This document shows, piece by piece, positions 2,206-20,000 of a stretch of DNA of 20,000 bases. Under the pieces are notes generated by a model. It did not search any database. It was not told where the DNA came from and saw only the letters and a program-made list of their open reading frames with translations. A program made the translations under genes and the position numbers. Each line of letters opens with the position of its first letter. The first letter of the stretch is position 1. Source of the stretch: an uncultured virus (IMG/VR IMGVR_UViG_3300002097_000869) (Duplodnaviria; Heunggongvirae; Uroviricota; Caudoviricetes); IMG/VR virus record IMGVR_UViG_3300002097_000869, positions 113,011 through 133,010 of that record; one strand, 5' to 3'.

Positions 2206-2220
2206 GTACGAGGGACTCCT

Positions 2221-2895
2221 TTATCCGAGGTCCAAGGGGATTTCTGTAGAATATTCTGGGCAAAAAGATTCGACCCAAAAAAATTCTTTTAATCCGTGGT
2301 TTGTAAATATGATATCACCTAGAGAAAGGGAAGTTGAATTTTTACGGTATAGTTTAGCCCATATGCCTTCGCATTTTTGCCATTCTTCACAAAGTACGTC
2401 CTCTGTTCTGGATAGAGATAACAAAATATTAATTGGATCCTTTACAGAATTAAGCCCCTCTTTGTCCCAAAAAAGTACGTAGGTATTTCTATACTTTTTT
2501 CTTAGAGTCGGCAGTATCATTTTTTTTATTTTTGCAAGGTCTTTCACTATCGTGTAGTCTTTATATAGGGGTAAAATAGCCTCTATGTCGGTGTATTCTA
2601 CTAGATAACATGTAAACTTTTTGTAGCTGACCTTTTGTAATTCTTCAGTCTTAATTGTCTGGTATACGTATTTATTGTGGGGAACTTTAGTGGCAATAGG
2701 TAAAGAATGAGGAAAGAATACCAATGTTTCAGATTGTTTTTTATAGTCCGTAGTAAAACCCAAAGGTGAAGCTATACAGGAGTTAGTCAGTGCACTATTA
2801 TCATAGACAGCAATTATATCTATATTATTAAACGGAAATGGGTATGGATATATTAGTTTGGTCCCTAATTTTAGATTTGGCAGTAGGGAAGGCAT
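2221..2895 (-). CDS. Hypothetical protein, possibly a degenerate gamma-glutamylcyclotransferase (GGCT/AIG2)-fold protein
   Basis: 224-aa ORF overlapping the upstream stop; IIAVYDNS loosely resembles GGCT hhhYGS/T, FTCYLVEYTDIEAILPLY resembles V.G.lye....l..LD; position within a ligase/GATase cluster. ORF well supported, family weak. Confidence 0.4.
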   Translation of the reverse strand: MPSLLPNLKLGTKLIYPYPFPFNNIDIIAVYDNSALTNSCIASPLGFTTDYKKQSETLVFFPHSLPIATKVPHNKYVYQTIKTEELQKVSYKKFTCYLVEYTDIEAILPLYKDYTIVKDLAKIKKMILPTLRKKYRNTYVLFWDKEGLNSVKDPINILLSLSRTEDVLCEEWQKCEGIWAKLYRKNSTSLSLGDIIFTNHGLKEFFWVESFCPEYSTEIPLDLG

Positions 2896-3737
2896 TTTTC
2901 AACCCAATCGGATGAATAGCCTTTGGTAGTCATAGGCTCAAGAATAAGGGCCTCATTTTTCTTTAGGAGGATTTCTTGAGCATCTAAGAATATATGCCCC
3001 GCTTTATTAGTGTCTATGCCTATAATAGTGTCATTTAATAGTTGTTCATTGTTTGATATGAAGACTAAGTCCTGCCATTTCTTTGTTTTTATTGTCAGAT
3101 TATCCGATTTTTTTGCGATAAATAGTCTAATTGTGTCTGTAGCAAACACTATATAAAAATAGTTACCATGACATATAGAGGCAGCCTTCTTAAAGGCTTC
3201 TTTTATAGGTGCTCCTTCTACAATGAACTTTCCTGTCAAAGCGAGAACCAAATCAACTTTGCTGGGTAATGTTTGTAGGTTTATACGATATTGCTTGGCT
3301 ATTTTTTCTACGGATTTAATATTACCCATGCCAAACCCTATCATATTACCCATTTTTATAGGGGCTGTTTCTTTGTGGGTTTCTTTTGTTAGTATTCCGG
3401 CTATCAATGCAGTTGGGTTAATTATATCATTGTTTATTATATTTAAGAACTTGAGGTTATCTACTAGTTTTCCTTTAGAAAGAATTTCTTTTATAGTAAT
3501 TAGTCCTGTTTTGTATGGTCTGACAGAGTTGGCATTTTGAAAGATGGAATTAGTACTATGGAGAGTAGAATTAAATACAGATAAGGAGCATAGTGGATTT
3601 TCCATGCCAAGTAAAGCAATGTTAAAGAAGGTTTTTATCACAGTTTGCTTATCAGTAGCTGGGGAAGATTGAACAGCATGGGTATATTCTTTGGGCTTAG
3701 ACAAACAAATGAGTAGGGTGGTGTTATGGTCGTACAT
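2871..3737 (-). CDS. Degenerate (likely inactive) class II GATase/Ntn-fold protein
   Basis: C-terminal half follows the GlmS-type GATase pattern (IGFGMGNIKS ~ HNG.I.N; SKVDLVLAL ~ TDSEvi.l; EAFKKAASICHGNYFYIV; RLFIAKKSDNL ~ l..aR...PL; VFISNNEQLL ~ faSe..l) but lacks Cys2, HNG and DSE residues. Confidence 0.55.
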   Translation of the reverse strand: MYDHNTTLLICLSKPKEYTHAVQSSPATDKQTVIKTFFNIALLGMENPLCSLSVFNSTLHSTNSIFQNANSVRPYKTGLITIKEILSKGKLVDNLKFLNIINNDIINPTALIAGILTKETHKETAPIKMGNMIGFGMGNIKSVEKIAKQYRINLQTLPSKVDLVLALTGKFIVEGAPIKEAFKKAASICHGNYFYIVFATDTIRLFIAKKSDNLTIKTKKWQDLVFISNNEQLLNDTIIGIDTNKAGHIFLDAQEILLKKNEALILEPMTTKGYSSDWVEKCLPYCQI

Positions 3738-5328
3738 ATGTACCTGACTCTTTATCCCAAATTACGCCGTTGGTTGTTTGTAAATATAAAATCCCAAGTT
3801 TTACTTGTTCTGTTTTAGCTCCTATAATTTCACTAACAGTGCTTATCCACTCTAGTTCGTTAGAACACTCATCAATAAGGGCGGTATCTATTGTTTCTGA
3901 GATTTTATCAAGAACTATCTTACTTATTTTGTTTTTGTTCTTCACTAAATCTTTTTCTATCTTGTCCCAAGAGTCGCCTTCACTTAACCTATACGAACAA
4001 GGTCGCTCGGCTAATTCTAGTAGTATGTTAAAGGAATTTCCGTGTCCTCTAAGTTCCGGCTTTAATAGATTAACCATCTCTTTTGCTTGTAATCTAACCT
4101 TTTCCACGTAGGGTTCAAAGTTCTTGGTATTACTATGTCTAGGTCCCCCATAGTCTCCATAATTGTTTAAAAGTTTTTCTTGTATTTCACTTGCCTCATC
4201 CATATAGTCTGTATCGCCACTATGTAAAATACCATAGGTACTGAAAGACACGGCCTTTATAAGTAGCGAATATACAAGGAGGGATATTGCTGTTATAGCG
4301 GAAGGGGACAGCAGGCCATCACAGAAGCGGGCTTCTAGGTGTAGTTTTTCTATAGCTTCTTTGGAATCAAATTCTATATTGGAGTAGTTTATAAAAGAAT
4401 ATCTGCCCTTGGTGCCATCTGACTCGCTTATTTCTTTTATAATAGATTTCATATTTCTACGTAGAGCGGAAAACTTTAGTATTGTGTGTCTGAATTTTGC
4501 CCATCTAGTAAGAGTATCCTTGGAAGTACCCGCAGAGGAGATCCAAACTAGGGCATTATGGTAACGTCTGATAAGTTGGTGAAAGTTTGTCAATATAATT
4601 TCCGGCATAGCTCTTTCGAGTTCTATTATATTATGTTTATTATTGACTCCCTTTTTGTATATTGGTATCACTTCCCCCCTATCGTTGAAACCAATATTAT
4701 AGTATCCTGATAAAAGATGTATGTGGGTGCTAGCTCTTTCATCTACGTAAGCACCCTTAGCTATACATTTGTCTATAATATTCTTTGTTTGTTCTAATAA
4801 CATATCGTAGCTTACTCTCCTACCCACCGTTGTAACTTCAACGCCTCCGTCTCCCTTTAAGCTGCCATCTTTTACGATTTGGAATACTCCGTTATCGCCA
4901 ATCTTAAGAAGGTTTTCCGATGGAGTCAGTTCCTTAACAAGCTTAGCTCGTACATGGGAGGGATTTTTATTCTCGTCCAGAAAGAGGGCACATTTGGTAC
5001 AGTCCCTTATGGCATCCTTGCATGTAAAGCAAGGAGAGTAAAATTCCACGCAGTATATTCCTGGGCATTCATATTTTTGTCTTAGAGTACAATGCTTATA
5101 GGAAGCACATTTGGTGAAACACTTGGAGTTTTCTTTTTGGGGATGAGAGCACGGGCATAGAAAGCTCTTACCATTACAGTTGCCTGTTTTTTCTAGCAGG
5201 TTTAGTTCGTGTTCGAGCCCTATTTTTAGAGTAGCTTCCAATATTCTTTTCCAATAATTAGCTTCCTCCGATAGCAAACAGGGCCTGTTCTTTTTCTTTG
5301 TGAATACTAACTTCTGATTTTGTTTCAT
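3724..5328 (-). CDS. Putative amidoligase (glutamine-synthetase/COOH-NH2 ligase fold, Amidoligase_2-like) with Cys-rich insertion
   Basis: Motifs IGLEHE, KDGSL..GVEVTT, VDERASTHIHL, RYSFINY, LEARFCDG in the expected order; 12 Cys in residues 51-113. Confidence 0.85.
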   Translation of the reverse strand: MKQNQKLVFTKKKNRPCLLSEEANYWKRILEATLKIGLEHELNLLEKTGNCNGKSFLCPCSHPQKENSKCFTKCASYKHCTLRQKYECPGIYCVEFYSPCFTCKDAIRDCTKCALFLDENKNPSHVRAKLVKELTPSENLLKIGDNGVFQIVKDGSLKGDGGVEVTTVGRRVSYDMLLEQTKNIIDKCIAKGAYVDERASTHIHLLSGYYNIGFNDRGEVIPIYKKGVNNKHNIIELERAMPEIILTNFHQLIRRYHNALVWISSAGTSKDTLTRWAKFRHTILKFSALRRNMKSIIKEISESDGTKGRYSFINYSNIEFDSKEAIEKLHLEARFCDGLLSPSAITAISLLVYSLLIKAVSFSTYGILHSGDTDYMDEASEIQEKLLNNYGDYGGPRHSNTKNFEPYVEKVRLQAKEMVNLLKPELRGHGNSFNILLELAERPCSYRLSEGDSWDKIEKDLVKNKNKISKIVLDKISETIDTALIDECSNELEWISTVSEIIGAKTEQVKLGILYLQTTNGVIWDKESGTYVRP

Positions 5329-6382
5329 GTTTCAACCATTTAAGTATGAGTGGTGCCTCGTGCTCCTCGGGTTTATAACTTATGTTTTGCATATATTCAC
5401 CAGCTAGGTTGCCAATATTTTCTTCTATTTTTTTCATTTCTTCTTTCATCTTATTCTTATTTCTACTGTAGTACATATCTTGTACTTTAGTTGTATCTGG
5501 TAATTTATATAGTTTAGCTATGTAATCTTTGTCAGATATTTTTTCTGTTCTTTTCCAAGCAAGGCTTTCTTTATAAACTGTGTTTAGGATGTTTTCCATA
5601 AGGACAAAAGAAGTTGTTAGTAGGCTTAGTGCAAGTCGTGGGGACTTCAAATAATATCCCCCTGGGGTTCTATACTCCAAAGTTCTTCTACTTAAGCGGT
5701 AGTCTCCTAACTTGCCATAATCTTTTGACAATCTTCTACTATCATTGCTATCTATAAAAGCACTTGGAATACCAATATAGTAATCTAATATGGACACCAT
5801 ATTCTTTATTATTTTATCAGTGTTATTTGGGGCAAATAGAAGAAGGTCTTCAGGAAGACCAAGGTGAACGTGAAAACCACATACACGATTATACAGACAA
5901 GACCCCGCAATGGGAAACAAGCCTTTCGGTAGTGTAGTATAAATTTTTAATACTTGGTTTTTTAGATTTTCCAGGTGCTGCTCCGGAGATAAAGCAAAAT
6001 CTGGACGTAATTCCCCTAATTCGCCATCACACCCTATTTGGCTGTCGAATGGAAGGACGGAAGAGGCATCTACTAATGTTCCTTTACGATTTACAATAAA
6101 GAATTCAGGGTCGGACCCTATTGTTAGATCGTGCTTCTCTATATATATGTTTTTTCCTGGATTGTATATTATAGGGGATAATACGTTGACAAATATATTC
6201 TTATTCCCGTGAGAGACAATATCTTCTTTTATAGCAGGGCAAACTAATAAACTAAATTTTCCAACCGCGGTATCAAATATTAACCAATCACCATGGTCGA
6301 TACCATAAGATAGCATTATTTCTCTTGGTACTCTAACCTGGTGCATTGCGCATGAAGTAGACGGAACAGCAGTAAGAAACAT
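5258..6382 (-). CDS. Phage phiEco32-like COOH-NH2 ligase type 2 with ~85-aa N-terminal domain
   Basis: Motifs TIGSDPEF, IGCDG..GELRP, CGFHVHLG, RR..YGKLGDYR, LEYRTPG; SD AAGAGGT upstream of ATG 6382. Confidence 0.9.
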   Translation of the reverse strand: MFLTAVPSTSCAMHQVRVPREIMLSYGIDHGDWLIFDTAVGKFSLLVCPAIKEDIVSHGNKNIFVNVLSPIIYNPGKNIYIEKHDLTIGSDPEFFIVNRKGTLVDASSVLPFDSQIGCDGELGELRPDFALSPEQHLENLKNQVLKIYTTLPKGLFPIAGSCLYNRVCGFHVHLGLPEDLLLFAPNNTDKIIKNMVSILDYYIGIPSAFIDSNDSRRLSKDYGKLGDYRLSRRTLEYRTPGGYYLKSPRLALSLLTTSFVLMENILNTVYKESLAWKRTEKISDKDYIAKLYKLPDTTKVQDMYYSRNKNKMKEEMKKIEENIGNLAGEYMQNISYKPEEHEAPLILKWLKHETKSEVSIHKEKEQALFAIGGS

Positions 6383-6399
6383 GCACCACCTCTTATGAA

Positions 6400-7767
6400 T
6401 TAATGATAACGAATTAACATATTTTTCTGTTCGTAAGCAGCTTTCCTTTTCCAGAATTGATTTTTAAACATTTTTATATTGTCTACATAATCGTAGACAA
6501 TAGCATTTTCTTTTCCTTCCAACGGTCTCTCAATCCTGCCAGTTGACTGAACTATTAGGCTAGAACTCTTTAGGGGGGCGGCGAGAAATAAGCGACTTGA
6601 AGGTTTATAATTAAAACCCTCAGCTAGAAGGCCATAGGTTACTATAAGTATTTTTGTTTCTCCAGAGAGAAACCCTTCTATCTGTTTATCCCTAATCTTA
6701 TTTGTCTGTTTGGAATGCGGAGAAGCAACAGTTATCCCCAAACTATTAAAGATATCTGTTAGAATATCTATATGTTTAGTGGTAACAGTTAATACCATAC
6801 AGGTATTTTCTAGACCATACTCATATAGTATATCTGATACTATGAGATTGTTTCTTCTTTCATTAGTAGAAATATATTCTATTAGATCTGCATAGTTGGC
6901 TCCCCATAACTTCTTCGTAGCGGTAATTTCAGTATAGTGTACTAAGACAGAAGAATTTATTATTCTATTTGCATCTACTGCATCCTTATGCTTTATTGTT
7001 GTTACTACTGGTCCTATGTAATTAAACATCAAAGGATCTAATCCATCTTCTCTATACGGGGTAGCTGTAATTCCATATAAAAATCTAGGAGAAAATCCAC
7101 AGATAACCTTTAAGAAAGTAGAGGAAGGAACATGTTGGCATTCATCAACAAGTATTAATCCAAAAGAATATTTAAGTTCTTTTATTAGTTCTTTGTTACG
7201 AACTAGTGTGGGAACCATACCTATAGTAAGTATATCCCCAAGTGCCTTCTTACTCTCTCCTATAATTCCTATTTTTCCTACTTCTATAAATTTCTCTATC
7301 TCTTTCTTAACTTGTTTAACAAGGGGCCCCCTATGAGTTAGCCATAGTGTGGGTAACCCTAGTCTGGCTATGACTTCCAAAGCCATTACAGTTTTTCCAC
7401 TTCCTGCGGGGGCTATGCCAATACCCTGTCGGTGGGAAACTAAACTCTCAACCCAGGGTATTTGTATAGGTTCCAACTTTATGTTATTATTTATTAATCT
7501 TTTACTGAAATTGGCGGTAGTGTCTTCTATAACATTTATACTATTAGTTATTTCTGTAGCCCTATAGAGATAGCCTCTAGGAACTATTATGCCTTCGGTT
7601 ATTTCTGAATATTGTTTTATGAATTTTGGTATACCGAAGGTTCGTCTGCCAAATTGTATAGCAGATTTCCACGCAGGATTCGGGAAGGTTAGGTCTTTTC
7701 TAAATTGGTCTAGTTCAGTTTTTGATATGTTTGTTATAGTTAAGTCTTTGTCAATTTTGACATCCAT
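6400..7767 (-). CDS. Superfamily 2 DExH helicase (UvsW/XPB/ResIII-like)
   Basis: Walker A APAGSGKT, DECQH, motif III TATP, motif V LAEGFN, motif VI QSTGRIER; ATG at 7767 (TTG at 7770 also possible). Confidence 0.93.
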   Translation of the reverse strand: MDVKIDKDLTITNISKTELDQFRKDLTFPNPAWKSAIQFGRRTFGIPKFIKQYSEITEGIIVPRGYLYRATEITNSINVIEDTTANFSKRLINNNIKLEPIQIPWVESLVSHRQGIGIAPAGSGKTVMALEVIARLGLPTLWLTHRGPLVKQVKKEIEKFIEVGKIGIIGESKKALGDILTIGMVPTLVRNKELIKELKYSFGLILVDECQHVPSSTFLKVICGFSPRFLYGITATPYREDGLDPLMFNYIGPVVTTIKHKDAVDANRIINSSVLVHYTEITATKKLWGANYADLIEYISTNERRNNLIVSDILYEYGLENTCMVLTVTTKHIDILTDIFNSLGITVASPHSKQTNKIRDKQIEGFLSGETKILIVTYGLLAEGFNYKPSSRLFLAAPLKSSSLIVQSTGRIERPLEGKENAIVYDYVDNIKMFKNQFWKRKAAYEQKNMLIRYH

Positions 7768-8024
7768 CAAATCTTCAACGCGAGTACCCCGAGCTTTAGC
7801 TCTGGGGAGGAAGCGCTCCTCCTTGTTGTATTAGTAAAGTTTTACGACCTTTTAACCAAACAGTAGTCATGGCTTTAGGTCACTTATGATTCGTAATTAG
7901 CTGGTTTGTTATCCCCAGTCTTCCTAGATTTTACTTGAGTAATGCTTTGGCTTTCCTTTTTTGGAATTATTTCCTAGTAAGCAAGGACTTGAAAGCCCCC
8001 GTTTTTAGGCGGGGGGTTATTTAT
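7768..8024 (-). mobile_element. Non-autonomous IS200/IS605-family miniature element with IscB-type ends (no transposase or nuclease)
   Basis: Only long non-coding gap in the region, bounded by two GC-rich hairpins with TAAA-containing loops: ATAAATAACCCCCCGCCTAAAAACGGGGGCTT (8024-7993) and TTCCTCCCCAGAGCTAAAGCTCGGGGTACTCGCG (7812-7779); these resemble the 5' (GTCAAxxACCCC...GGGGCTT) and 3' (TTCCTCCC...AAA...GGGGT) ends I recall for IscB elements. Confidence 0.6.
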
Positions 8025-8031
8025 AGTCCTC

Positions 8032-8241
8032 TTACAAGGTCGTAGAACCCATCTCTTTAGGGGTGGGATATAAGGCCTTTTGATAGTCCTCACTTTCTTT
8101 TTTTACTATATTTGTAACTTCTACTTCGTATCCTCCTTCTTCTAAGTTTTTTCTATGTCTGTCTCTAAGTTTCATAAATTCATAGTATTCTTTCATGGAT
8201 TCAAATGTTCTTCCTGGAAATAGGGGAACAGTGAAAGCCAC
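8032..8241 (-). CDS. Hypothetical protein (69 aa)
   Basis: GTG start overlaps ssb stop (TAGTG); co-oriented, protein-like composition. Confidence 0.65.
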   Translation of the reverse strand: MAFTVPLFPGRTFESMKEYYEFMKLRDRHRKNLEEGGYEVEVTNIVKKESEDYQKALYPTPKEMGSTTL

Positions 8242-8681
8242 TATAAACCTTTTACTAAGGACAAGATCTTATCTTGAGCTTCCTGTGAAACTCCAGAAGG
8301 AAGACGAGGATCCGTGTTTGCAATAGTTTCTGATGGGTCCGAGGGTGCTTCTGAGCGTACTGTTGAAACAAAGCGAACATCATTAGCTACTATATTTACG
8401 AACCTCTTTACTCCGGCTTCGGTCTCTATGCGCCTATTTTCTAAACGTCCTTCTACTATTACTGGAGTACCTTTTGAACAATACTTCATGACGGCTTCAC
8501 CCTGGGGTCCCCAACATACTATTGACATATATGTGGTTTCTTCCTGTTTTACTCCGTCTCTAGTCTTATACCGCCTGTTGGAAGCGAGATCAAAACGGCA
8601 CCCTTTGGTACCGTCCCCTATTGGGCTAGGATCCGAAGTAAGCCTACCACCAAATACCACCAAATTAATGTCTACTGACAT
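8241..8681 (-). CDS. ssb: Single-stranded DNA-binding protein (OB fold)
   Basis: INLVVFGGRLTSDP, FDLASNRRY, EETTYMSIVCWG, YCSKGTPVIVEGRL; start reassigned to ATG 8681 after GGAGG. Confidence 0.93.
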   Translation of the reverse strand: MSVDINLVVFGGRLTSDPSPIGDGTKGCRFDLASNRRYKTRDGVKQEETTYMSIVCWGPQGEAVMKYCSKGTPVIVEGRLENRRIETEAGVKRFVNIVANDVRFVSTVRSEAPSDPSETIANTDPRLPSGVSQEAQDKILSLVKGL

Positions 8682-8702
8682 AAAAACCTCCCACACTTTC
8701 TT

Positions 8703-9959: not shown

Positions 9960-10631
9960 TCACTCATATTTGTCTATCCATTTAAGAAGGCGTATTGTTC
10001 CATAGTTATATCTATTATACCTTCCCTCCCGTTTCTGACTTTCGATAATGTTTCTACACACAGATATGTTCGCGCCGTGTTCTAATAGCGCTTCTATTAC
10101 TTCAGTATGGCCGCAGGCTAAGGCATATTTGAGGGCCCGATCATAGTCTGCATGTACGTTCGCCCCATGCCTAAGTAGTACTTTTACAATAGCAAGATGC
10201 CCTGTTCTACAAGCTTTCCTAAGAGCTAAATCATTATACATATGAACATCAGCTCCTTCGGTAATAACTCTACTCAATACTTTGGGTGTAATCTTCTCTT
10301 TTTCACCCATAATTACTTTGTTGGCGTGCCATACTTGTGGCTTATTTTCAAGGTGTCCGAAAAACCCTGCAAAAGTATCTTTTACCACGTGGGTATTACT
10401 AGGTATGGTAACTTTTCGTAGCCACGGTCCACAATCTAAAAAGGCTAGAGTGTCTTCCTTGGTAAAATAGATATCGAATGATGGCTTAGCTACATTGAGC
10501 CCAGTCTTGAGTTTTAGTCCGTCATAAATTCTATTCAGCATTATAATTTTGTAGAAACCCATTTGGGTATCGTTTTTTATTTCGTGTGGGTCGTAGCTAC
10601 AATGAGCCTGGGCATGGTAGTACTTAGACAT
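9960..10631 (-). CDS. Ankyrin-repeat protein with N-terminal domain resembling Mimiviridae ankyrin proteins
   Basis: Two 30-aa ANK units (GADVHMYNDLALRKACRTGHLAIVKVLLRH; GANVHADYDRALKYALACGHTEVIEALLEH); N-terminal FYKI..KTGLN..IYFT..WLRKVTIP..WHANKVIMGE. Start uncertain (10652, 10631 or 10562). Confidence 0.85.
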   Translation of the reverse strand: MSKYYHAQAHCSYDPHEIKNDTQMGFYKIIMLNRIYDGLKLKTGLNVAKPSFDIYFTKEDTLAFLDCGPWLRKVTIPSNTHVVKDTFAGFFGHLENKPQVWHANKVIMGEKEKITPKVLSRVITEGADVHMYNDLALRKACRTGHLAIVKVLLRHGANVHADYDRALKYALACGHTEVIEALLEHGANISVCRNIIESQKREGRYNRYNYGTIRLLKWIDKYE

Positions 10632-10648
10632 TGTTCTTTCTTCTGATG

Positions 10649-13600
10649 TCAACTTCTCATTTTTTCTTTGGCGTGTTTAAACATCCAACCAGTCAGGTCT
10701 TTTGGTTCAGTATTTATGTTCTTTATCATTACAATTGGGTGCAGATTAGACCTAGTGGTAAACCAAAACTTGTGAAATTTTCTAACTATTATATTAACAA
10801 TGGAGGACCTACCTTCTAACTCTGCCTTTTTATAATATTCCTCCAAACTTTCGGGACGAAATCCACAAAGGGCGGCCTTTTTTCTTATTATGTCAGTTAA
10901 TTTTATGCTGGTAGATTTATCAAATCCTAATTCCACCATCTTATCAACTCGGGCTGTACATATCGCTTCTTTACATTCTTTTTCCAGGCTTCTTCCAGCA
11001 TGCTTTCTACTAAATACACTATTAGCAACTTTGTCTAGTAGAATTTCCATTGCTATTGTAGTATCAGGGTCATTATAGTCCAATTCACCCTCTAAGATCC
11101 TCATTATATTATAGCACAAGGCAATTATTGTTCCGGTACCTCGTTTTATTCCCGTCAAACCCTCTACTATTTCTGCATTTTCTTTGGCATTTAGTAGCCC
11201 AAATCTTTGTATGTTGTATTCATCCAATACTAGCTCCCTAAATCCAGGTATTTTCTTTAATCTGGCTTTTTCATACGCAGCCAGCCTCGCCGGGTGTGGA
11301 TTATTGAACTCTGTTTCTAGGGCTACTCTGGATTCCTTACTGTGAAAGCTCATTATATATATAACATCCCCATCGAAATCTAGGGTGAGTGAAGAAAGAC
11401 TACTCCCACTTACTTTGACTACATACTTAGCAAGGGGCTCATCGGTTATTTTTACTTTCTGGGCTCGTACGGACATGAATCCTAGACAAGGAAACCTTTC
11501 TACTAAAACTATGTCTCCTTCTAATATTCTTAAGTCATTAGCCATTTCTCTGTGAAGCTCTATTTGGTTAGGTTCCAGTATATCACTAACACCGGCTGTG
11601 GCTTTAATTGTGTAAGGATACCGAATTGAAAGACAGTAATTACTTATCTTGCCATTTTTAGAACTTAAGGTGCCTGCTATAGTGTGAAAATATAAAAACA
11701 CAGCCCTACCTACTTGTGACACACTGACTTCTTCGTTTTTATACTTATGAATAGCACTTACTATGGCATTTGCTAAGGCGGATATGTCTGACAAACCAAA
11801 CTGCCCGCTTTGATGTTTCCAAGGCTTTCTAAATTTACTGGAAGGAATTAGTATTTTGTCTAATATATAGGTGTCATTTTCATTATCCATGTGTTTGTTG
11901 GTAAACTCTTCAGAAAATTCTGAAAACATGGCCTTCTTTAATATATATTTATAATCGTCGGGTAACTTTAGATAGAAGCCATTTGGGCATAAGGTTTCAT
12001 CAGAAACTGTCCCACTAAAATCAATAAGGTGGTGAAAGAATCCCCCTGTCTGATTAACTGGGTTTATCTTATCCCACTCTATTGTTGGTATATCCTTTTC
12101 CTCTCTGTTGATAGATTCTAATACACGGATATATTCAAATACCTGGTCCTCGCCTTGGGAGTGTTTTAATATTTCTTTTATGATAGGATTTTTCTTTCCA
12201 AACGTGGTTAGTAGGGCTCTGAATTCTATGTGACTGAGTTTATTACCCGCTTGTCGTACACCCCTACCGTCTACTACATCAGTATCGTATTTTGTCCATA
12301 GCTGGTCCTCAGGTGTCTTGGTGTAACCCCAGAATATCCACCCAGCGACCCCCCTAAAGTCTCCCCATTGGGTGGCAGCCGTTACCGTTCCATCTTCTGA
12401 ATACCCTATATTAGAGAGTTTATCTTTTATTGATTCCATACTGGTAACGAACTCATCTTCTACTATTGTCTCTTTATCGGAGCCATGTATCAAACTACTG
12501 AGAGCTTCTAATAGCTGCCCAAAATTCTTTCTTTTTTGTACAGAACTAGCTGAAACTATAACGTCTATGGGTACATCCCCACGAACGGGGTCATGAATTA
12601 CCCCCGTATCTTGTAAGGTAATAACACCTTTATTTCCATGCCTATTGGTAATCTTTACACCCTCCTTGAAGGTTCTCTTATAAATTATGGTTATTCGTCG
12701 TATTTTAGTTGGTGCATTATTGAAATTTATTACCGATTCGATAACGGAGGATACTATAGCACTTTCGGCTCTTAAATTGAAACGAATGAAACTACCGTCA
12801 GGTTCTATTGCTAAGGGATACAAAAAGTTTAGCGAGTCTCCTTCTCGTACCAAAGTCGTACCAAAAGTTGTATAGCTTTTGGTTTCCATGGTAAAGAGAT
12901 GTTCAAGCCTATTACTAACTATTATTTGGTCTTCAAAATTTAGGGGCATATCTACAAATAGGGTCATTAAGTTCCACCCTGTTCTATTGATCCCTACGTC
13001 ACTTAAAGTTTTTTCTGTCCTACTCATTATTTTGGGTGGTTCATCCCCTCGCATCCCTAAAGTTTGGTATAAATTTCTACGGGGGTTATGATATCCTATA
13101 CCAAACGGTATAGTCTTTCTTACGTCCACAGTAAGAATATTATTATTGCACATACCACTATCTGACAAACCCAAGGAAGTACACGGAAACAATATTTCAT
13201 TAGCTGTCTTTTGATATTCCAAGGCTTTATTTGGAGGAAGGTCTTTAAATGTAGAATCCACTATTTGCATTCTATGGCACATGGCCCAATTTTGCATGTC
13301 AGTGCCTACTATGGGAAGTGCATTTACATAGGAATCAATGACCTTTTGAAAGCCTTTAAACACTATAGGAGCAGAACCATAGATAAAGCTTCGTACTAGG
13401 CGATCAAGCTGAGTTCTTTTACTGGAAGTTTTAGCAAACTTTTGTGGGTTGTCGGTGAACATCCCATATATAAGATTCCAGAAATCTATTTCTTTGCCAT
13501 CCACAAACCAGGTCCCCACGGCTCGTTTTACGTGTCCCTCCTCAATAAAACACAGGCCTTTTTCATCAGAACTGGGAATCGGGATATTGATCGATTGTTC

Positions 13601-13768
13601 TATTTCTTTGGATTTGAATGTGAGCCAAAGACTACCAGATTTTTCCTCAATCCTTATTAACTCAGTTTGAAAGATATCCCCCAACTGTCCCTGGGCTTTA
13701 CTACGAGAGGTCTCTGAAGAAGATTTTATCTTAGATATAAAACCATCTTTTCCAAGAACCTGTGTCAT
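10649..13768 (-). CDS. Single-polypeptide two-barrel DNA-dependent RNA polymerase (fused beta-like + beta'-like catalytic cores)
   Basis: Beta motifs GWN..LNFEDQIIVS, GVKITNRHGNKGVI (12626-12643), DVIVS..KRKNFGQLLE, GNKLSHIEFRAL, then beta' motifs SKNGKISNYCLSIRY, VLVERFPCL and catalytic LDFDGD (11366-11380), all in one uninterrupted ORF. Confidence 0.92.
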   Translation of the reverse strand: MTQVLGKDGFISKIKSSSETSRSKAQGQLGDIFQTELIRIEEKSGSLWLTFKSKEIEQSINIPIPSSDEKGLCFIEEGHVKRAVGTWFVDGKEIDFWNLIYGMFTDNPQKFAKTSSKRTQLDRLVRSFIYGSAPIVFKGFQKVIDSYVNALPIVGTDMQNWAMCHRMQIVDSTFKDLPPNKALEYQKTANEILFPCTSLGLSDSGMCNNNILTVDVRKTIPFGIGYHNPRRNLYQTLGMRGDEPPKIMSRTEKTLSDVGINRTGWNLMTLFVDMPLNFEDQIIVSNRLEHLFTMETKSYTTFGTTLVREGDSLNFLYPLAIEPDGSFIRFNLRAESAIVSSVIESVINFNNAPTKIRRITIIYKRTFKEGVKITNRHGNKGVITLQDTGVIHDPVRGDVPIDVIVSASSVQKRKNFGQLLEALSSLIHGSDKETIVEDEFVTSMESIKDKLSNIGYSEDGTVTAATQWGDFRGVAGWIFWGYTKTPEDQLWTKYDTDVVDGRGVRQAGNKLSHIEFRALLTTFGKKNPIIKEILKHSQGEDQVFEYIRVLESINREEKDIPTIEWDKINPVNQTGGFFHHLIDFSGTVSDETLCPNGFYLKLPDDYKYILKKAMFSEFSEEFTNKHMDNENDTYILDKILIPSSKFRKPWKHQSGQFGLSDISALANAIVSAIHKYKNEEVSVSQVGRAVFLYFHTIAGTLSSKNGKISNYCLSIRYPYTIKATAGVSDILEPNQIELHREMANDLRILEGDIVLVERFPCLGFMSVRAQKVKITDEPLAKYVVKVSGSSLSSLTLDFDGDVIYIMSFHSKESRVALETEFNNPHPARLAAYEKARLKKIPGFRELVLDEYNIQRFGLLNAKENAEIVEGLTGIKRGTGTIIALCYNIMRILEGELDYNDPDTTIAMEILLDKVANSVFSRKHAGRSLEKECKEAICTARVDKMVELGFDKSTSIKLTDIIRKKAALCGFRPESLEEYYKKAELEGRSSIVNIIVRKFHKFWFTTRSNLHPIVMIKNINTEPKDLTGWMFKHAKEKMRS

Positions 13769-13845: not shown

Positions 13846-14817
13846 CTAATCAACCCAACAATCATACGCATACCATTCGTTCATTACAGATTCAAGATTG
13901 TGTTTTAGGACATATCTTGGGTTATTTATTAAATCCAGGCGTACCCAAGAAAAGAAATATTGCAACATATTTACTGCTAAACCAGAATCTTTATTTCTAT
14001 CCCTATATTCTATAAGTTTATCCATCGATAACATATAACCTAAATTATATAGTTTACATATATAATACAGCGGTATCAATTCATATCTGGCTATGTCTGT
14101 TGGATTTTTTTTATACTTTTTTCTTATACTATCAAATGATAGTAAAGGAATGCCTTCTGAATCCTTGGCTTCTTTATCCAAATAGTTTTCCAATAGCAAG
14201 AACAACTTACCCCCTCTTACATCTCTGCCCTTTTGATGTGTCAAAAAGGCAAGGCCAGACCTACTCACAGTACCATTCTCAAAGAGGCGGATAAAACTAG
14301 ATGAGTTGGCCTCATTAAATATACCGCATAGATCTATGTCTAAGAGTTCAAACTTATGTGGTCTTAATCTTGTTATTTCATTCATATACTTTACGAAGGG
14401 TCTTTTGGCCCAGGGACTTGTTTTATTTCCTGGGGGTTTTATACAGGTTTTTTTCCCATAACAGGCACTAAAAGAATTAAAACTGTGGGGCCATATTTTC
14501 ATAAATGGGAGGTGTTCTTCTCTAGTTCTTATAAGCTTTCGTAATAGTTCCTCTCCATTATGTACAACTGATAGTTTCTCCGTAGTTTGTATGGTAGTTA
14601 TACTACCCGCAGTTGTAATACCCTGGTTTACTAACAATCTTTCAAATAGAGCGTCAGGACCAGCAAAGGTGAGACATTTTATTTTGTCTCTTCTATCACC
14701 ATAATAGAAAGGGAAAGTAGTTTCTAGGAAATTTTTTACTGAAAAGATTTTATGAATTCTTACGAGTGTTTTATTCTTCCCATTCCAACACATTACTTTA
14801 TTAGAGTTTATTGACAT
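13846..14817 (-). CDS. Putative class I SAM-dependent methyltransferase-fold protein
   Basis: KCLTFAGPDALFE (motif I-like) and FELLDIDLCG (motif IV-like); SD GGGAGAG. Substrate unknown. Confidence 0.5.
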   Translation of the reverse strand: MSINSNKVMCWNGKNKTLVRIHKIFSVKNFLETTFPFYYGDRRDKIKCLTFAGPDALFERLLVNQGITTAGSITTIQTTEKLSVVHNGEELLRKLIRTREEHLPFMKIWPHSFNSFSACYGKKTCIKPPGNKTSPWAKRPFVKYMNEITRLRPHKFELLDIDLCGIFNEANSSSFIRLFENGTVSRSGLAFLTHQKGRDVRGGKLFLLLENYLDKEAKDSEGIPLLSFDSIRKKYKKNPTDIARYELIPLYYICKLYNLGYMLSMDKLIEYRDRNKDSGLAVNMLQYFFSWVRLDLINNPRYVLKHNLESVMNEWYAYDCWVD

Positions 14818-14844
14818 CAATCTCTCCCAAAATAAGTTTCATGT

Positions 14845-16641: not shown

Positions 16642-16728
16642 TGGCGAGGGTAGGACTCGAACCTACGTTGTTTTCCCTAAGGGTAACAGATTTACAGTCT
16701 GTCGCCTTCGCCGCTAGGCTACCTCGCC
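16642..16728 (-). tRNA. tRNA-Tyr (GUA), bacterial type with long variable arm; CCA not encoded
   Basis: GGCGAGG/CCTCGCC acceptor stem + discriminator A, D arm GCCT/AGGC, anticodon arm ACAGA-CTGTAAA-TCTGT, 19-nt variable region, T arm GTAGG-TTCGAGT-CCTAC. Confidence 0.95.
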
Positions 16729-19266: not shown

Positions 19267-19509
19267 TTAAGACTCCTTTCTCGGTGAAAGTTTTCCCACA
19301 ACAGTCACATTTATAGGGAAACTTTCCCATTCATACAAATGAATAAATGTCTCATAATGTTCAGCAAGTACTCTCAATTCCAATTTGGCATCTTCACCAA
19401 AACAACTTACACCGCAGCCTCCAAACCAGGGTTCGTGTCCAAACATTTCCACAAAACCTCTTTGTACTGTTGTCGCTTGTTTAAGTTTTTCTACGTTATA
19501 TCCTGGCAT
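19267..19509 (-). CDS. Hypothetical protein (80 aa)
   Basis: Co-oriented ORF overlapping the ankyrin gene end. Confidence 0.6.
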   Translation of the reverse strand: MPGYNVEKLKQATTVQRGFVEMFGHEPWFGGCGVSCFGEDAKLELRVLAEHYETFIHLYEWESFPINVTVVGKLSPRKES

Positions 19510-20000
19510 CTAGTTTTTTTCTTTTTATCGGACAAGAGTTTTACCACCTCAGAGTGTTCGTTCATAATAGCCCACCTAAGAGCCTCGTCTTCGTGAGCGT
19601 GTACGTCAGCTCCGTGCTCAAGAAGAAGTTTTACTATTTCAATGTGTCCGTACTCACTAGCCAATCTGAGAGCCTCGTCTTCGTGAGCGCGTACGTCAGC
19701 TCCGTGCTCAAGAAGAAGTTTTACTACTTCAAGGTGCTCGTTTTCACTTGCCCACCTAAGAGCTACGTCTTCTTGAACGTGTACGTCGGCTCCGTGCTCA
19801 AGAAGAAGTTTTACTACTTCAAGGTGCCCGTTTATACTAGCCCATCTAAGAGCAAGGTCTGTCTCAGCGTGTATGTTGGCCCCTTCTTGGATTAGTCTTT
19901 CTACCACCTCAACGGTAATCTTTTCTCTTTTCCCAAGAATAACCCTGGAAGCCCGCCACTTCTCAGGCTCTTTTTCAGGGTCTAGCACCATTTCTGCGTC
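19491..20000 (-). CDS. Ankyrin-repeat protein, 5' part outside window; paralogue of 9960..10631
   Basis: Four 30-aa units GADVHAxxDxALRWASxNGHLEVVKLLLEH; frame open to the window edge (GAC GCA GAA ATG); WRASRVILGKREKIT matches WHANKVIMGEKEKIT of the other ankyrin gene. Confidence 0.92.
   Translation of the reverse strand, partial: DAEMVLDPEKEPEKWRASRVILGKREKITVEVVERLIQEGANIHAETDLALRWASINGHLEVVKLLLEHGADVHVQEDVALRWASENEHLEVVKLLLEHGADVRAHEDEALRLASEYGHIEIVKLLLEHGADVHAHEDEALRWAIMNEHSEVVKLLSDKKKKTRCQDIT
19538..19885. repeat. Coding tandem repeat, 90-bp period, ~4 copies
   Basis: GTACGTC(A/G)GCTCCGTGCTCAAGAAGAAGTTTTACTA recurs at 19601, 19691 and 19781, with a diverged unit near 19871. Confidence 0.9.

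What the first reader, a model, noticed from the sequence alone, without database searches (positions are those of the whole stretch)
10649..13768. Minimal single-chain RNA polymerase: cellular-like beta and beta' cores fused in 1039 aa
Seen: one ORF carries beta-type motifs (NFED ~aa 277, RHGNKG ~aa 376, KRKNFGQLLE, GNKLSHIEFRAL) followed by beta'-type motifs (SKNGKI..SIRY, ERFP ~aa 757, DFDGD ~aa 797). Known: bacterial beta and beta' total ~2700 aa on two chains; single-chain two-barrel enzymes exist (SPbeta YonO, crAss-like virion RNAP, yeast killer plasmid ORF6) but are few. Inference: this is a heavily trimmed phage RNAP that keeps unusually cellular-like beta motifs, has LDFDGD in place of NADFDGD, shows no recognisable beta' Zn-binding domain or trigger-loop motif, and has only ~240 aa after the active site. 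No sigma or alpha gene is visible in the window. It may be a poorly described RNAP lineage.
Basis: partly seen in the sequence, partly recalled or inferred. Interest (0 to 1): 0.88.

Follow-up and report, generated by a model that had tools for sequence, protein, structure and literature searches.

The report
Trimmed one-piece phage RNA polymerase
A huge uncultured phage encodes a 1039-residue, single-chain, stripped-down version of the cell's two big RNA polymerase subunits; it belongs to an unnamed family whose relatives also exist as two separate halves and as a copy fused to the tail tape-measure protein.

Summary
Window 10649-13768 (-) is one intact 1039-aa ORF. Its beta-type barrel (Pfam Rpb2_6, E 5e-11) and beta'-type barrel (Rpb1_2, DFDGD) sit at the stated positions. 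All catalytic residues are invariant in 112 of 112 aligned relatives.

It is not an orphan. It belongs to an unnamed metagenomic family of about 1030-1180 aa, with 69 representatives at E<=1e-30 among 1.84 billion proteins. Members lie on phage contigs of up to about 300 kb. No member was found in 50,697 GenBank phage records.

Profile comparison places it with cellular-type, fused beta-beta' enzymes, aligning collinearly over aa 219-819 (probability 98-99%). It does not group with YonO, crAss gp66 or P23-45 gp64.

- Homologous beta-halves (about 550 aa) and beta'-halves (about 500 aa) exist as separate adjacent genes in a complete 261-kb phage.
- Relatives with near-complete genomes carry a second, divergent copy at the N-terminus of a 4,500-7,700-aa tape-measure protein. 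This is the arrangement known from Thermus phage P23-45.

The window's enzyme is therefore most likely the non-virion polymerase of a multi-polymerase programme. A sigma-70-family gene lies 3.4 kb outside the window.

The bridge-helix and trigger-loop assignment and the barrel juxtaposition remain untested.

The parts
10649..13768 (-). Gene for the 1039-aa single-chain two-barrel RNA polymerase (P0001), stop codon included
   Evidence: ORF; Pfam; family; invariant catalytic residues.
12089..13768 (-). Beta-like half, about aa 1-560. It corresponds to stand-alone ~550-aa proteins in other phages.
   Evidence: hhalign of the family profile A1 against the split beta-half profile A5: A1 aa 138-548 aligns with A5 113-547 of 563, probability 99.9, E 8.9e-36. 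The first ~135 aa have no detectable relative outside the family.
12488..12979 (-). Beta-type double-psi barrel with a short inserted hybrid-motif ('flap') remnant, aa 264-427. It holds NFED (277-280), K372 and RHGNKG (376-381), and NFGQLLE (415-421).
   Evidence: Pfam Rpb2_6. Bacterial RpoB chains at E 8e-6 to 8e-8. hhalign vs E. coli RpoB 1048-1120, probability 92.8. Residue-level alignments to P0218 and P0223. Weak Biotin_lipoyl_2 hits in 4 of 44 members.
10652..12055 (-). Beta'-like half, about aa 572-1039. It corresponds to stand-alone ~500-aa proteins in other phages.
   Evidence: hhalign A1 aa 572-963 against the split beta'-half profile A6 16-446 of 512, probability 99.8, E 1.4e-27. 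A1 aa 634-746 aligns with E. coli RpoC 237-376, showing the LRP..SDLN and KGKQGRFR..R.DYSGRS-type motifs.
11324..11566 (-). Beta'-type double-psi barrel, aa 735-815, with ERFP (757-760) and the metal-binding LDFDGD (796-801; DFDGD is nt 11366-11380).
   Evidence: Pfam Rpb1_2. Profile hits to the AR9 beta' N-subunit 7s01_d (E 3e-3), Rpb1, and the P23-45 tape measure 8h2n_A (E 0.026). Invariance.
10649..11323 (-). C-terminal ~225 aa with no relative in any solved RNA polymerase or Pfam family; the stand-alone beta'-halves (A6) do cover aa 572-963. It holds the candidate bridge helix (K875..Y886..R890..E893), the candidate trigger-loop start (N916-H923), and a second invariant block (R996..R1006).
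   Evidence: Invariant columns. The KHG block is also conserved in split beta'-halves. No profile support against any RNA polymerase tested. The assignment is inference.
8241..8696 (-). Single-strand DNA-binding protein gene downstream of the polymerase gene; part of the conserved neighbourhood.
   Evidence: Pfam SSB E 2e-20. An SSB homologue lies downstream of the polymerase gene in 10 of 13 loci.
6400..7770 (-). XPB/RadD-like SF2 helicase gene, always a few kb downstream of the polymerase gene.
   Evidence: Pfam ResIII and Helicase_C. NCBIfam XPB E 1.3e-16. Present in 13 of 13 loci.

Best explanation
The ORF encodes an active, single-polypeptide, DNA-dependent RNA polymerase of the two-barrel (cellular) class. 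It belongs to a tailed phage of roughly 250 kb.

It is a collinear, deletion-trimmed fusion of a beta-like half (aa 1 to about 560) and a beta'-like half (about 572-1039). The beta barrel supplies the two lysines (K372, K380) and the E279/D280 pair. The beta' barrel supplies the Mg-binding D797/D799/D801.

It lacks the Zn ribbons, most of the flap and lobes, all lineage insertions, and any alpha or omega partner gene.

It is most likely made inside the infected cell as a non-virion enzyme. It would transcribe one temporal class of phage genes independently of the host polymerase. A divergent paralogue fused to the N-terminus of the giant tape-measure protein would be injected and start the programme. 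Host polymerase with the phage sigma factor probably reads a further class.

Shown here: homology, domain order, conservation of catalytic residues, the family and its split and tape-measure-fused relatives. Inferred: activity, timing, non-virion status, promoter independence from sigma, and presence of the tape-measure-fused copy in this particular phage.
For: Polymerase identity:
- Pfam Rpb2_6 and Rpb1_2 in P0001 and in 44 of 44 relatives scanned.
- Bacterial RpoB chains are the best PDB matches.
- Catalytic residues are invariant in 112 of 112.
- Collinear profile alignments reach fused enzymes that carry canonical Pfam domains: P0251 (A1 240-817, probability 98.1), P0223 (264-805, probability 97.9) and P0218 (219-481, probability 98.9).
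- The [RK]xP..DxDxD signature that Chaban et al. used to filter polymerases is met: R758-F-P760 lies 36 aa before D797 (supplement file 8 of PMC10770324).

Phage context:
- The window is the last 20 kb of a 133-kb virus record estimated 58% complete.
- Coding density is 97% in table 11.
- The record carries PolA, DnaB, primase, RecA, RNR, ClpP and homing endonucleases.

Two-polymerase scheme:
- In 5 of 5 relatives searched (228-298 kb, three 100% complete) a second match to the family profile lies in a giant open frame of 3325-7674 aa. It is strong in three (E 3e-12, 5e-12, 9e-9) and weak in two (8e-4; 0.01).
- The tape-measure domain PF10145 lies in the same frame in 4 of 5 (aa 2525-2723 of 4554, E 5e-25).
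- The G002 giant aligns to P0001 aa 200-605 at probability 97.3. It keeps HED, the K-7-K spacing and NLDFDGD.
- This mirrors P23-45, where the tape-measure-fused enzyme is the virion polymerase and the free one is not packaged (PMC10770324, sections 6, 12, 13).
- No beta' C-terminal subunit gene (Rpb1_5) was found in 5 relatives, and no second polymerase gene in the 133-kb fragment.

Location: the gene sits among SSB, helicase, RuvB-like and sigma genes in a 31-kb minus-strand block, not among virion genes.
Against: - No structure could be predicted. Juxtaposition of the two barrels, a clamp, a bridge helix and a trigger loop are therefore not shown.
- The C-terminal 225 aa match no known polymerase.
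- The window's own phage was not shown to have the tape-measure-fused copy. The fragment lacks it and lacks any PF10145 match. The 247.6-kb contig with the identical gene could not be searched.
- The relatives that show the fused copy are only 35-41% identical in the polymerase.
- No phage-specific promoter motif emerged from 38 upstream regions.
- Non-virion status rests on analogy and gene position only.
- A conserved sigma-70-family gene leaves open that this enzyme, unlike other phage two-barrel enzymes, uses sigma.
Confidence: 0.6

Rival explanations
1. The enzyme is sigma-dependent. The phage's own sigma-70-family protein (279 aa, G000:108798-109637) is its promoter-specificity subunit, making a two-protein holoenzyme.
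For: - A group-3-like sigma with regions 2 and 4 is encoded about 14 kb downstream in the same transcription direction.
- Homologues sit next to a RuvB-like gene in relatives: 3 of 5 over the Pfam cut-off and 4 of 5 at E<=0.1.
- The polymerase is of the cellular lineage. It keeps a short helical stretch where beta' has the sigma-2-binding clamp helices, aa ~660-700 between the SDL and SKNG motifs.
Against: - The stretch between NFED and RHGNKG is only 100 aa. In the alignments it lacks the segment that holds the flap-tip helix, the sigma region 4 docking site in bacteria (the E. coli flap coordinates are recalled, not from a call).
- Phage sigmas normally redirect host polymerase (PMC7824862, passages).
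- TTGTCA-N17-TATAAT-like sites occur upstream of some genes, consistent with host polymerase use.
- The binding test could not be run.
Confidence: 0.15
2. This protein is itself packaged in the virion and injected to read the first genes. The tape-measure-fused domain of relatives would then be a different or inactive device.
For: - Virion polymerases are common among phage two-barrel enzymes, for example crAss gp66, phiKZ and AR9 virion polymerases (PMC10770324 discussion).
- The window's fragment shows no tape-measure fusion.
Against: - The gene lies in a replication and recombination block, far from the structural genes at 1-40 kb of the record.
- The tape-measure-fused paralogues keep all catalytic residues.
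- In the only studied case the free enzyme is absent from virions.
Confidence: 0.12
3. It is a polymerase but not the phage's transcriptase. It would make replication primers, or act on RNA templates as the QDE-1/RdRP branch does.
For: - Its neighbours are SSB, an SF2 helicase and recombination genes.
- Two-barrel enzymes include RNA-dependent polymerases and PolD (PMC7824862, PMC10770324).
Against: - The genome has its own DnaG-type primase and DnaB.
- Sequence affinity is to DNA-dependent cellular-type enzymes, not to the YonO, QDE-1 or crAss clade.
Confidence: 0.06
4. It is a decayed, catalytically dead relic of a polymerase, kept for another role.
For: It has lost more than 60% of the beta and beta' length and has no Zn sites.
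Against: - Every catalytic residue is invariant in 112 of 112 sequences that are only 35-58% identical overall.
- The ORF is intact in all members.
Confidence: 0.02

Closest known systems
Thermus phage P23-45 pair: gp96 (tape-measure-fused virion RNA polymerase) and gp64 (free non-virion RNA polymerase); Chaban et al. 2024, PMC10770324
   Same: - Both have a single-chain two-barrel enzyme plus a second copy fused to the N-terminus of a giant tape-measure protein.
- Both fused copies have DFDGD; in gp96 it is at 779-783, in the fused copies here at about 1390-1404.
- In both, the two copies are paralogues of each other.
   Different: - Sequence similarity to gp96 is confined to the beta' barrel (probability 82-83, 75 columns). 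Similarity to gp64 is insignificant (probability 3).
- The enzyme here keeps the cellular beta signature (RHGNKG, NFGQ.LE), is 1039 aa against 616, and sits in phages of about 230-300 kb rather than 84 kb.
- Chaban's dendrogram puts the P23-45 enzymes in the clade of phage, plasmid and RNAi enzymes. This family aligns with the cellular-type clade.
Bacterial RNA polymerase catalytic core (RpoB beta and RpoC beta')
   Same: - Same order of conserved blocks: the N..R..L block before the barrel, NFED, K..RHGNKG, N.GQ.LE, GG.R.GEME-like, then LRP..SDL, KG..GR.R..R.DYS.RS-like, R.P, NADFDGD.
- RpoB chains are the best PDB sequence matches.
   Different: - 1039 aa in one chain against 1342 + 1407 aa in E. 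coli.
- No Zn ribbon, no recognisable Rpb2_1-5/7 or Rpb1_1/3/4/5 Pfam domains, and no alpha or omega genes.
- Scores are far below every NCBIfam equivalog cut-off: 31 bits against 800-900.
Unnamed fused beta-beta' single-chain enzymes of metagenomes, such as P0251 (1064 aa: Rpb2_3 + Rpb2_6 + Rpb1_2), P0223 (1403 aa) and P0218 (1561 aa); probably what Chaban et al. call 'derivatives with fused DPBB domains'
   Same: - Beta-then-beta' order in one chain.
- Collinear alignment across both barrels at probability 98-99.
- P0251 has nearly the same length and barrel positions.
   Different: - Those proteins still score strongly on Pfam (Rpb2_6 at 1e-34 to 1e-50, with fork, Rpb1_1 and Rpb1_5 domains). 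The family here scores 1e-11 to 1e-13 and only on the two barrels.
- None is characterised.
- Whether Chaban's Supplementary Data 3 (a 7z file, unreadable here) includes this family is unknown.
Split minimal polymerase of huge phages: ~550-aa beta-half plus ~500-aa beta'-half (A5/A6; adjacent genes in complete 261-kb record G006). Unnamed.
   Same: - Closest relatives outside the family over nearly the full length of both halves: probability 99.9 (E 9e-36) and 99.8 (E 1e-27).
- Same trimmed design, and the KHG block is conserved.
- An SF2 helicase lies beside the genes.
   Different: - Two polypeptides, with gene order beta'-half then beta-half, the reverse of the fused order.
- The helicase is SNF2-type and shows no significant pairwise similarity to the window's XPB-like helicase.
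- No tape-measure-fused copy was detected in G006.
SPbeta YonO and crAss-like phi14:2 gp66
   Same: Both are phage-encoded single-chain two-barrel RNA polymerases with a DxDxD loop. YonO is about 100 kDa (PMC5467207 abstract in the search listing; PMC7824862 passages).
   Different: - The family profile finds nothing in the SPBc2 or phi14:2 genomes at E<=10. tblastn finds nothing at 1e-3.
- According to Iyer et al. 2021, YonO-type enzymes lack the hybrid-motif insert in the beta barrel and group with RdRPs. This family keeps a short insert and the cellular beta motifs.
phiKZ/AR9 multisubunit phage polymerases
   Same: - Jumbo-phage enzymes of cellular ancestry without alpha or omega, organised as virion plus non-virion pairs.
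- An SF2 (Rad25-like) helicase is linked to the polymerase genes (PMC7824862 passages).
- Weak profile hits to the AR9 beta' N-subunit (E 3e-3) and phiKZ gp71 (E 0.01).
   Different: - There, beta and beta' are each split into 2-3 proteins and together are full-sized. Here they are fused and trimmed.
- No match in the AR9 or phiKZ genomes with the whole-genome search.
- Those phages have no sigma. This clade has one.
Vibrio phage D181/D148 1006-aa protein (OZ196140.1, annotated as hypothetical)
   Same: It is a beta(C-part)-beta'(N-part) fusion in a cultured 187-kb phage and the only GenBank phage hit of P0001.
   Different: - It is much more cellular-like (Rpb2_6 at 1e-59, AADYDGD).
- It is followed by a separate 609-aa beta' C-terminal subunit with Rpb1_5, so it is part of a multisubunit enzyme.
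- Similarity to the family here is limited to the beta barrel.

Membership tests
Two-barrel (double-psi beta-barrel) RNA polymerase superfamily | A beta'-type barrel with a DxDxD metal-binding loop preceded by [RK]xP | tested here: met
   Rpb1_2 in 44 of 44 members. R758-x-P760 and D797/D799/D801 are invariant in 112 of 112.
Two-barrel (double-psi beta-barrel) RNA polymerase superfamily | A second, beta-type barrel supplying two basic residues | tested here: met
   Rpb2_6 at E 5e-11. K372 and K380 are invariant with the bacterial K-7-K spacing.
Two-barrel (double-psi beta-barrel) RNA polymerase superfamily | The two barrels face each other to form one active site, with a bridge helix and trigger loop | not testable with these tools
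There are only sequence candidates (K875-E893; N916-H923), without profile support.
Cellular-type clade (multisubunit enzymes and their fused derivatives; Chaban et al. 2024, clade 1) | Beta-type sequence signature and collinear homology to beta and beta' beyond the DxDxD region | tested here: met
   hhalign vs E. coli RpoB at probability 92.8. A1 aa 219-819 is collinear with P0218, P0223, P0251 and P0214 at probability 96-99.
Cellular-type clade (multisubunit enzymes and their fused derivatives; Chaban et al. 2024, clade 1) | Hybrid-motif (flap) insert inside the beta barrel (Iyer et al. 2021) | tested here: inconclusive
   100 aa lie between NFED and RHGNKG, with a V.EGD...G..LA motif aligned to the same region of canonical enzymes. 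Biotin_lipoyl_2 is hit in only 4 of 44 members at E about 0.09. There is no model.
Bacterial RpoB/RpoC orthologues | Full-length match over NCBIfam or Pfam equivalog cut-offs; Zn ribbons; Rpb1_1/3/4/5 and Rpb2_1-5/7 domains | tested here: not met
   31 bits against cut-offs of 800-900. Only two Pfam domains are found. CxxC occurs in 6 of 112.
YonO-like single-subunit polymerases | Detectable homology to SPbeta YonO | tested here: not met
   No match in the SPBc2 genome with profile A1 at E<=10, nor by tblastn at 1e-3.
crAss-like virion polymerase (gp66) | Detectable homology to phi14:2 gp66; large virion polyprotein context | tested here: not met
   No match in the phi14:2 genome. The gene is 1039 aa and lies among DNA-metabolism genes.
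P23-45-type gp64/gp96 family | Sequence homology beyond the metal-binding barrel | tested here: not met
   gp96 matches on 75 columns around DFDGD only (probability 82). gp64 scores probability 3.
P23-45-type two-polymerase programme (works-like, not membership) | A paralogous polymerase fused to the N-terminus of the tape-measure protein in the same genome | tested here: inconclusive
   Met in relatives: a second match lies in a giant frame in 5 of 5 (three strong, two weak), and PF10145 lies in the same frame in 4 of 5. Not testable for the window's own phage, because the fragment lacks that region.
Yeast killer-plasmid pGKL2 ORF6 polymerase | Homology to ORF6 | not tested
   No ORF6 sequence was reachable with the tools. 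No PDB or Pfam proxy exists.

The most novel reading that the evidence does not exclude
A clade of huge tailed phages is built around a roughly 1000-residue minimal cellular-type RNA polymerase that occurs in three states:
- two separate halves;
- a beta-beta' fusion (this gene);
- a copy welded to the N-terminus of a 4,500-7,700-residue tape-measure protein for injection.

If so, the tape-measure-polymerase fusion of P23-45 is not a thermophile oddity. It would be a recurrent, possibly ancient solution that arose on a different polymerase lineage. About 1000 residues, with no Zn ribbons, alpha, omega or full flap, would then be enough for a cellular-type enzyme to transcribe. Such an enzyme might work alongside, or even with, a phage sigma factor.
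Probability: 0.45. Interest if true: 0.8.

Novelty: new variant of a known kind. Interest (0 to 1): 0.68.

Why it matters
Single-chain two-barrel polymerases are few, and the studied ones (YonO, gp66, gp64, QDE-1) belong to the branch far from cellular enzymes. This family lies on the cellular branch and is cut to about 38% of E. coli beta plus beta'. It therefore marks out what that lineage can lose and still keep every catalytic residue.

The split relatives give a natural fusion or fission series for asking how beta and beta' came to be arranged.

The tape-measure-fused paralogues extend the only known case of a polymerase riding on the tape measure (P23-45) to huge phages and to another polymerase family. 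That bears on how large phages start transcription before any gene is expressed.

A roughly 115-kDa, probably rifampicin-insensitive, self-contained polymerase could also be a useful tool. Rifampicin insensitivity is inferred only: the pocket-forming region is largely deleted.

Tried and rejected
The ESM Atlas holds no model of P0001 or P0098.
3. Promoter hunt. K-mer enrichment in 38 upstream regions of the 133-kb record found only ribosome-binding-site-like words. Around the gene, sigma-70-like sites numbered 32 against 27.6 +/- 4.9 in shuffles, and terminators 8 against 6.4 +/- 2.4. Neither is above chance.
4. The idea that the gene immediately upstream is a conserved specificity subunit. 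An ORF of 262-328 aa in that position is homologous in 8 of 12 related loci. The window's 324-aa ORF (13846-14820) shows no similarity to that family by jackhmmer or hhalign. It has no Pfam, PHROG or NCBIfam hit. Rejected for this phage.
5. Assigning the C-terminal 209 aa to the bridge helix and trigger loop by profile. Nothing scored above probability 1 against E. coli RpoC, the D181 beta' C-subunit, gp64, gp96, or the C-terminal parts of seven fused enzymes. My first by-eye reading of aa 227-245 as the 'fork' was corrected. The alignment to P0218 shows it is the N..R..L..Q block that precedes the barrel.
6. Low-stringency hhalign extensions looked collinear over 770-840 columns. They put DFDGD out of register with D181 and were discarded.
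7. Getting the rest of this phage's genome. The 247.6-kb contig holding the identical gene is not held for searching.
8. Locating split-form genes with alignments A5 and A6 failed because no conserved stretch was found. P0205 and P0224 as single queries found nothing. P0211 succeeded.
9. The tail-sheath family PF04984 was found in 0 of 5 related records. No conclusion on tail type was drawn.
10. The window's helicase and the G006 SNF2 helicase show no significant pairwise similarity. The shared 'helicase next to polymerase' theme is analogy only.

Full report
**What is there**

The window has 24 non-overlapping ORFs, 21 of them on the minus strand, covering 92.5% of it. The finding's ORF, 10649-13768 (-), is intact and encodes 1039 aa (P0001).
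- Pfam finds Rpb2 domain 6 (the beta barrel) at aa 335-462, E 5.3e-11 and above the curated cut-off.
- Pfam finds Rpb1 domain 2 (the beta' barrel with the metal loop) at aa 745-815, E 8.3e-5 and 2 bits below the cut-off.
- PDB sequence searches return only bacterial, plastid and archaeal RpoB chains for aa 354-464. The best is E 8e-6 with the single sequence and 8e-8 with the family profile.
- With the profile, beta'-type chains appear for aa 746-826: the AR9 beta' N-subunit at E 3e-3, Rpb1, and the P23-45 tape measure at E 0.026.
- PHROGs gives only weak hits to 'RNA polymerase beta subunit' families.

**Whose gene it is**

The window is the last 20 kb of a 133,010-bp virus record that CheckV rates 58% complete.
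- The record is 97% coding in table 11.
- It encodes large structural proteins, PolA, DnaB, a DnaG-type primase, RecA, RNR, ThyX, a Clp protease and ATPase, TnpB, several homing endonucleases and sugar-modification genes.
- It has only one polymerase gene and no Rpb1_5-type beta' C-terminal gene.
- It has a sigma-70-family gene of 279 aa at G000:108798-109637. This is group-3-like, with regions 2 and 4, and lies 3.4 kb outside the window.
- A 100%-identical polymerase gene lies on an independent 247.6-kb metagenome contig (L046), so the true genome is about 250 kb.

**The family**

The 5.8-billion-protein search scored 7,999 candidates and found 121 proteins at E<=1e-3. The 120 listed are 930-1176 aa long and 35-58% identical to P0001 (P0001 itself is also in the list) over 82-99% of the query. 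All are unnamed or labelled 'hypothetical', and they sit on contigs of up to 315 kb.

I aligned 112 of the 120 (A1). Conservation in that alignment:

| Feature | Count |
|---|---|
| D797, D799, D801 | 112 of 112 |
| K372, K380 | 112 of 112 |
| D280 | 112 of 112 |
| R758, P760 | 112 of 112 |
| E279 | 110 of 112 |
| DFDGD spelled exactly | 111 of 112 |
| CxxC anywhere | 6 of 112 |

The exhaustive search of 1.84 billion representatives found 763 proteins at E<=1e-3, 129 at <=1e-10 and 69 at <=1e-30. About 24 of the last group are full length; the rest are fragments.

tblastn against 50,697 GenBank phage records found no member. It found only a 9%-coverage hit in two Vibrio phages. The ESM Atlas lists two virus-only clusters of 59 and 87 members as nearest. 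One is automatically named 'putative DNA-directed RNA polymerase'.

**Where it sits among polymerases**

The family profile aligns to E. coli RpoB 1048-1120 at probability 92.8. It aligns with low probability, but with the expected motifs, to RpoC 237-376. Much stronger bridges came from unnamed fused enzymes found that still carry canonical Pfam domains:

| Protein | Length and Pfam domains | Region of A1 aligned | Probability |
|---|---|---|---|
| P0251 | 1064 aa; Rpb2_3, Rpb2_6, Rpb1_2 | 240-817 | 98.1 |
| P0223 | 1403 aa; Rpb2_6/7, Rpb1_1/2/5 | 264-805 | 97.9 |
| P0218 | 1561 aa | 219-481 | 98.9 |
| P0214 | 1760 aa | 634-819 | 96.5 |

The residue-level alignments show a collinear, deletion-trimmed beta followed by beta', in this order:
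- the N..R..L..Q block before the barrel (aa 227-240);
- GWN..NFED;
- a short V.EGD..G..LA hybrid-motif remnant;
- K..RHGNKG and N.GQ.LE;
- the GG.R.GEME-like block (GNKLSHIEF);
- then LRP-like..SDL, a short helical stretch, and KG..G..R..R.DYS-like (SKNGKISNYCLSIRYPYT);
- ERFP and LDFDGD.

Only 100 aa separate NFED from RHGNKG. From memory this distance is roughly 255 aa in E. coli. The segment that would hold the flap-tip helix is not there.

By contrast, the profile finds nothing at E<=10 in the genomes of SPBc2 (YonO), phi14:2 (gp66), AR9 or phiKZ. It matches P23-45 gp96 only around DFDGD (probability 82), and gp64 not at all (probability 3). [quoted passage not shown] I could not read their Supplementary Data 3 (a 7z file). 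That file may or may not contain this family.

**Split relatives**

Among the hits are proteins of about 550 aa matching only the first half and proteins of about 500 aa matching only the second.
- Profiles of 13 beta-halves (A5) align to A1 aa 138-548 at probability 99.9, E 8.9e-36.
- Profiles of 7 beta'-halves (A6) align to A1 aa 572-963 at probability 99.8, E 1.4e-27.
- The beta-halves end, and the beta'-halves begin, where the junction lies in P0001.
- In G006, a complete 261-kb phage record with terminal repeats, the two are adjacent, overlapping genes in the order beta'-half then beta-half. An SNF2-type helicase and a peptide deformylase follow.

The single chain is therefore one state of a minimal enzyme that also exists as two subunits.

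**A second, tape-measure-fused copy**

I searched five related records, G001-G005, of 228-298 kb, with completeness of 100, 100, 100, 87 and 86%.
- Each has the ~1050-1180-aa enzyme plus a second profile match inside a giant open frame of 4651, 4562, 7674, 3325 and 7488 aa. The match is strong in G001, G002 and G005 (E 5e-12, 3e-12, 9e-9) and weak in G004 and G003.
- The tape-measure domain PF10145 lies in the same frame in 4 of 5. The fifth frame is cut by the contig end.
- In the G002 protein (4554 aa) PF10145 is at aa 2525-2723 (E 5e-25).
- Aa 546-959 of that protein align to P0001 aa 200-605 at probability 97.3. They keep HED, the K-7-K pair and, further on, NLDFDGD at 1404. G001 has NLDFDGD at 1388.

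This is the design described for P23-45. There the tape-measure-fused gp96 is the virion enzyme that reads pre-early genes, including the gene of the free, non-packaged gp64. The authors called the fusion 'a previously unsuspected association' (sections 6 and 13). Their table of viruses with two polymerases (Supplementary Data 4; part 1 read and the file searched) lists P23-45 relatives, phiKZ-like phages, gut-phage assemblies and giant viruses. In what I read I saw no huge phage with a tape-measure fusion.

The window's own fragment has neither a second match nor PF10145. Its missing 42% could not be reached. For this phage the fused copy is therefore an inference from relatives that are only 35-41% identical in the polymerase.

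**Neighbourhood**

I compared 13 loci, the window plus 12 (L014 and L015 are near-duplicates).
- In 13 of 13 the polymerase gene is followed within a few kb by an XPB/RadD-like SF2 helicase, a phiEco32-type COOH-NH2 ligase, an unknown 534-574-aa protein and a glutamine amidotransferase.
- In 10 of 13 an SSB also lies downstream.
- Iyer et al. noted a Rad25-like helicase linked to polymerase genes in phiKZ-like phages and suggested a RapA-like role. The recurrence here and in G006 is suggestive, but the helicases are not similar to each other.
- The sigma gene and its RuvB-like neighbour are conserved about 14-17 kb from the polymerase gene.

**How it most likely works**

Shown:
- a conserved, intact, cellular-type two-barrel catalytic core in one chain;
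- phage origin;
- paralogous tape-measure-fused copies and split orthologue-like forms in related phages.

Inferred:
- The protein is an active DNA-dependent polymerase.
- It is made after infection and reads one class of phage genes without host polymerase.
- The injected tape-measure-fused copy starts the programme.
- Host polymerase with the phage sigma reads another class. TTGTCA-N17-TATAAT-like sites do occur upstream of some genes.

The main open alternative is that the phage sigma serves this enzyme. The deleted flap-tip region argues against that, and the retained short clamp-helix-like stretch argues for it. The binding prediction could not be run.

**What remains untested**

- No 3D model could be made.
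- The last 225 aa match no known polymerase outside the family and the split beta'-halves.
- Two candidate bridge-helix segments exist, K875-E893 and R996-L1009. An invariant N916-S-V-F..K-H923 block could be the trigger-loop start, and KHG is also kept in the split beta'-halves. These are readings by eye.
- No phage-specific promoter was found.

**Literature**

Six full-text searches found no description of this family or of tape-measure-fused polymerases in huge phages. I also read passages of PMC7824862, PMC7481178, PMC7162821, PMC12619734, PMC13282480, PMC7598289 and the crAss preprint, with the same result. Subscription journals are not covered.

**Verdict**

The feature is real and correctly read. 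It is a new, uncharacterised variant within the known kind 'single-chain two-barrel phage RNA polymerase'. It is notable for its cellular-type beta, its extreme trimming, its split and fused forms, and its tape-measure-fused paralogue.

Noticed in passing
G001-G005 (e.g. L036:365-14029 minus strand; L037:757-14712 minus strand): Giant 3,300-7,700-aa open frames combine an N-terminal two-barrel polymerase (NLDFDGD at about aa 1390-1404) with a tape-measure domain (PF10145, at about aa 2530-2720 in the two ~4,600-aa frames examined). This is a P23-45-like tape-measure-polymerase fusion in huge phages.
   Followed up: partly
L050:3374-8331 (record G006): A complete 261-kb phage encodes the same minimal polymerase as two overlapping genes: a beta'-half of 555 aa, then a beta-half of 558 aa. 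An SNF2-type helicase gene (553 aa) overlaps the beta-half gene by 8 nt, and a peptide deformylase follows.
   Followed up: partly
L021:5203-10691 (Vibrio phage D181, OZ196140.1): A cultured 187-kb Vibrio phage has an unannotated 1006-aa fusion of the beta C-part and beta' N-part (Rpb2_6 at 1e-59, AADYDGD). A separate 609-aa beta' C-terminal subunit follows. All are labelled 'hypothetical protein'.
   Followed up: partly
window 346-6382 (-); also G000:112109-113338: A conserved module sits downstream of the polymerase and helicase in 13 of 13 loci: glutamine amidotransferase (619 aa), two unknown ORFs, an unknown Cys-rich 534-aa protein, and a phiEco32-type COOH-NH2 ligase. A second such ligase lies just outside the window. 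Its function is unknown (peptide or metabolite ligation?).
   Followed up: no
G000:108798-110636 (L007:13798-15636 minus strand): A group-3-like sigma-70-family gene (279 aa) lies directly downstream of a RuvB-like AAA gene. The pair is conserved in related huge phages.
   Followed up: partly
window 16642-16728 (-): A tRNA-Tyr (GTA) gene lies between the SDR and metallophosphoesterase genes.
   Followed up: no
window 9960-10652 (-) and 19491-19991 (-): Two ankyrin-repeat proteins. The first overlaps the polymerase gene's stop codon by 4 nt. Neither is conserved at this position in the 12 related loci.
   Followed up: no
window 13846-14820 (-): A 324-aa ORF lies immediately upstream of the polymerase gene, with no hit in Pfam, PHROGs or NCBIfam and no similarity to the ORF family that occupies the same position in 8 of 12 related loci.
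   Followed up: yes
L004:9480-9668 (+) (G000:47480-47668): A 62-aa protein has a TFIIB/TFIIS-type zinc ribbon (Pfam E 1e-6, below the cut-off). It is of interest next to a phage polymerase but is unstudied.
   Followed up: no
G000:95674-95706, 100828-100935, 101665-101700 (upstream regions printed): Three genes in the HNH-endonuclease-rich stretch are preceded by a shared AAAAWTTYTAGGTAT-like word that abuts the start codon in two of the three (34-36 nt upstream in the third). Its significance is unknown.
   Followed up: no
L005:405-1538, L005:5155-6573, L006:1886-3289: A TnpB/Cas12f-like gene and two RRXRR-HNH genes lie within the phage record, alongside several GIY-YIG and HNH homing endonucleases.
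   Followed up: no
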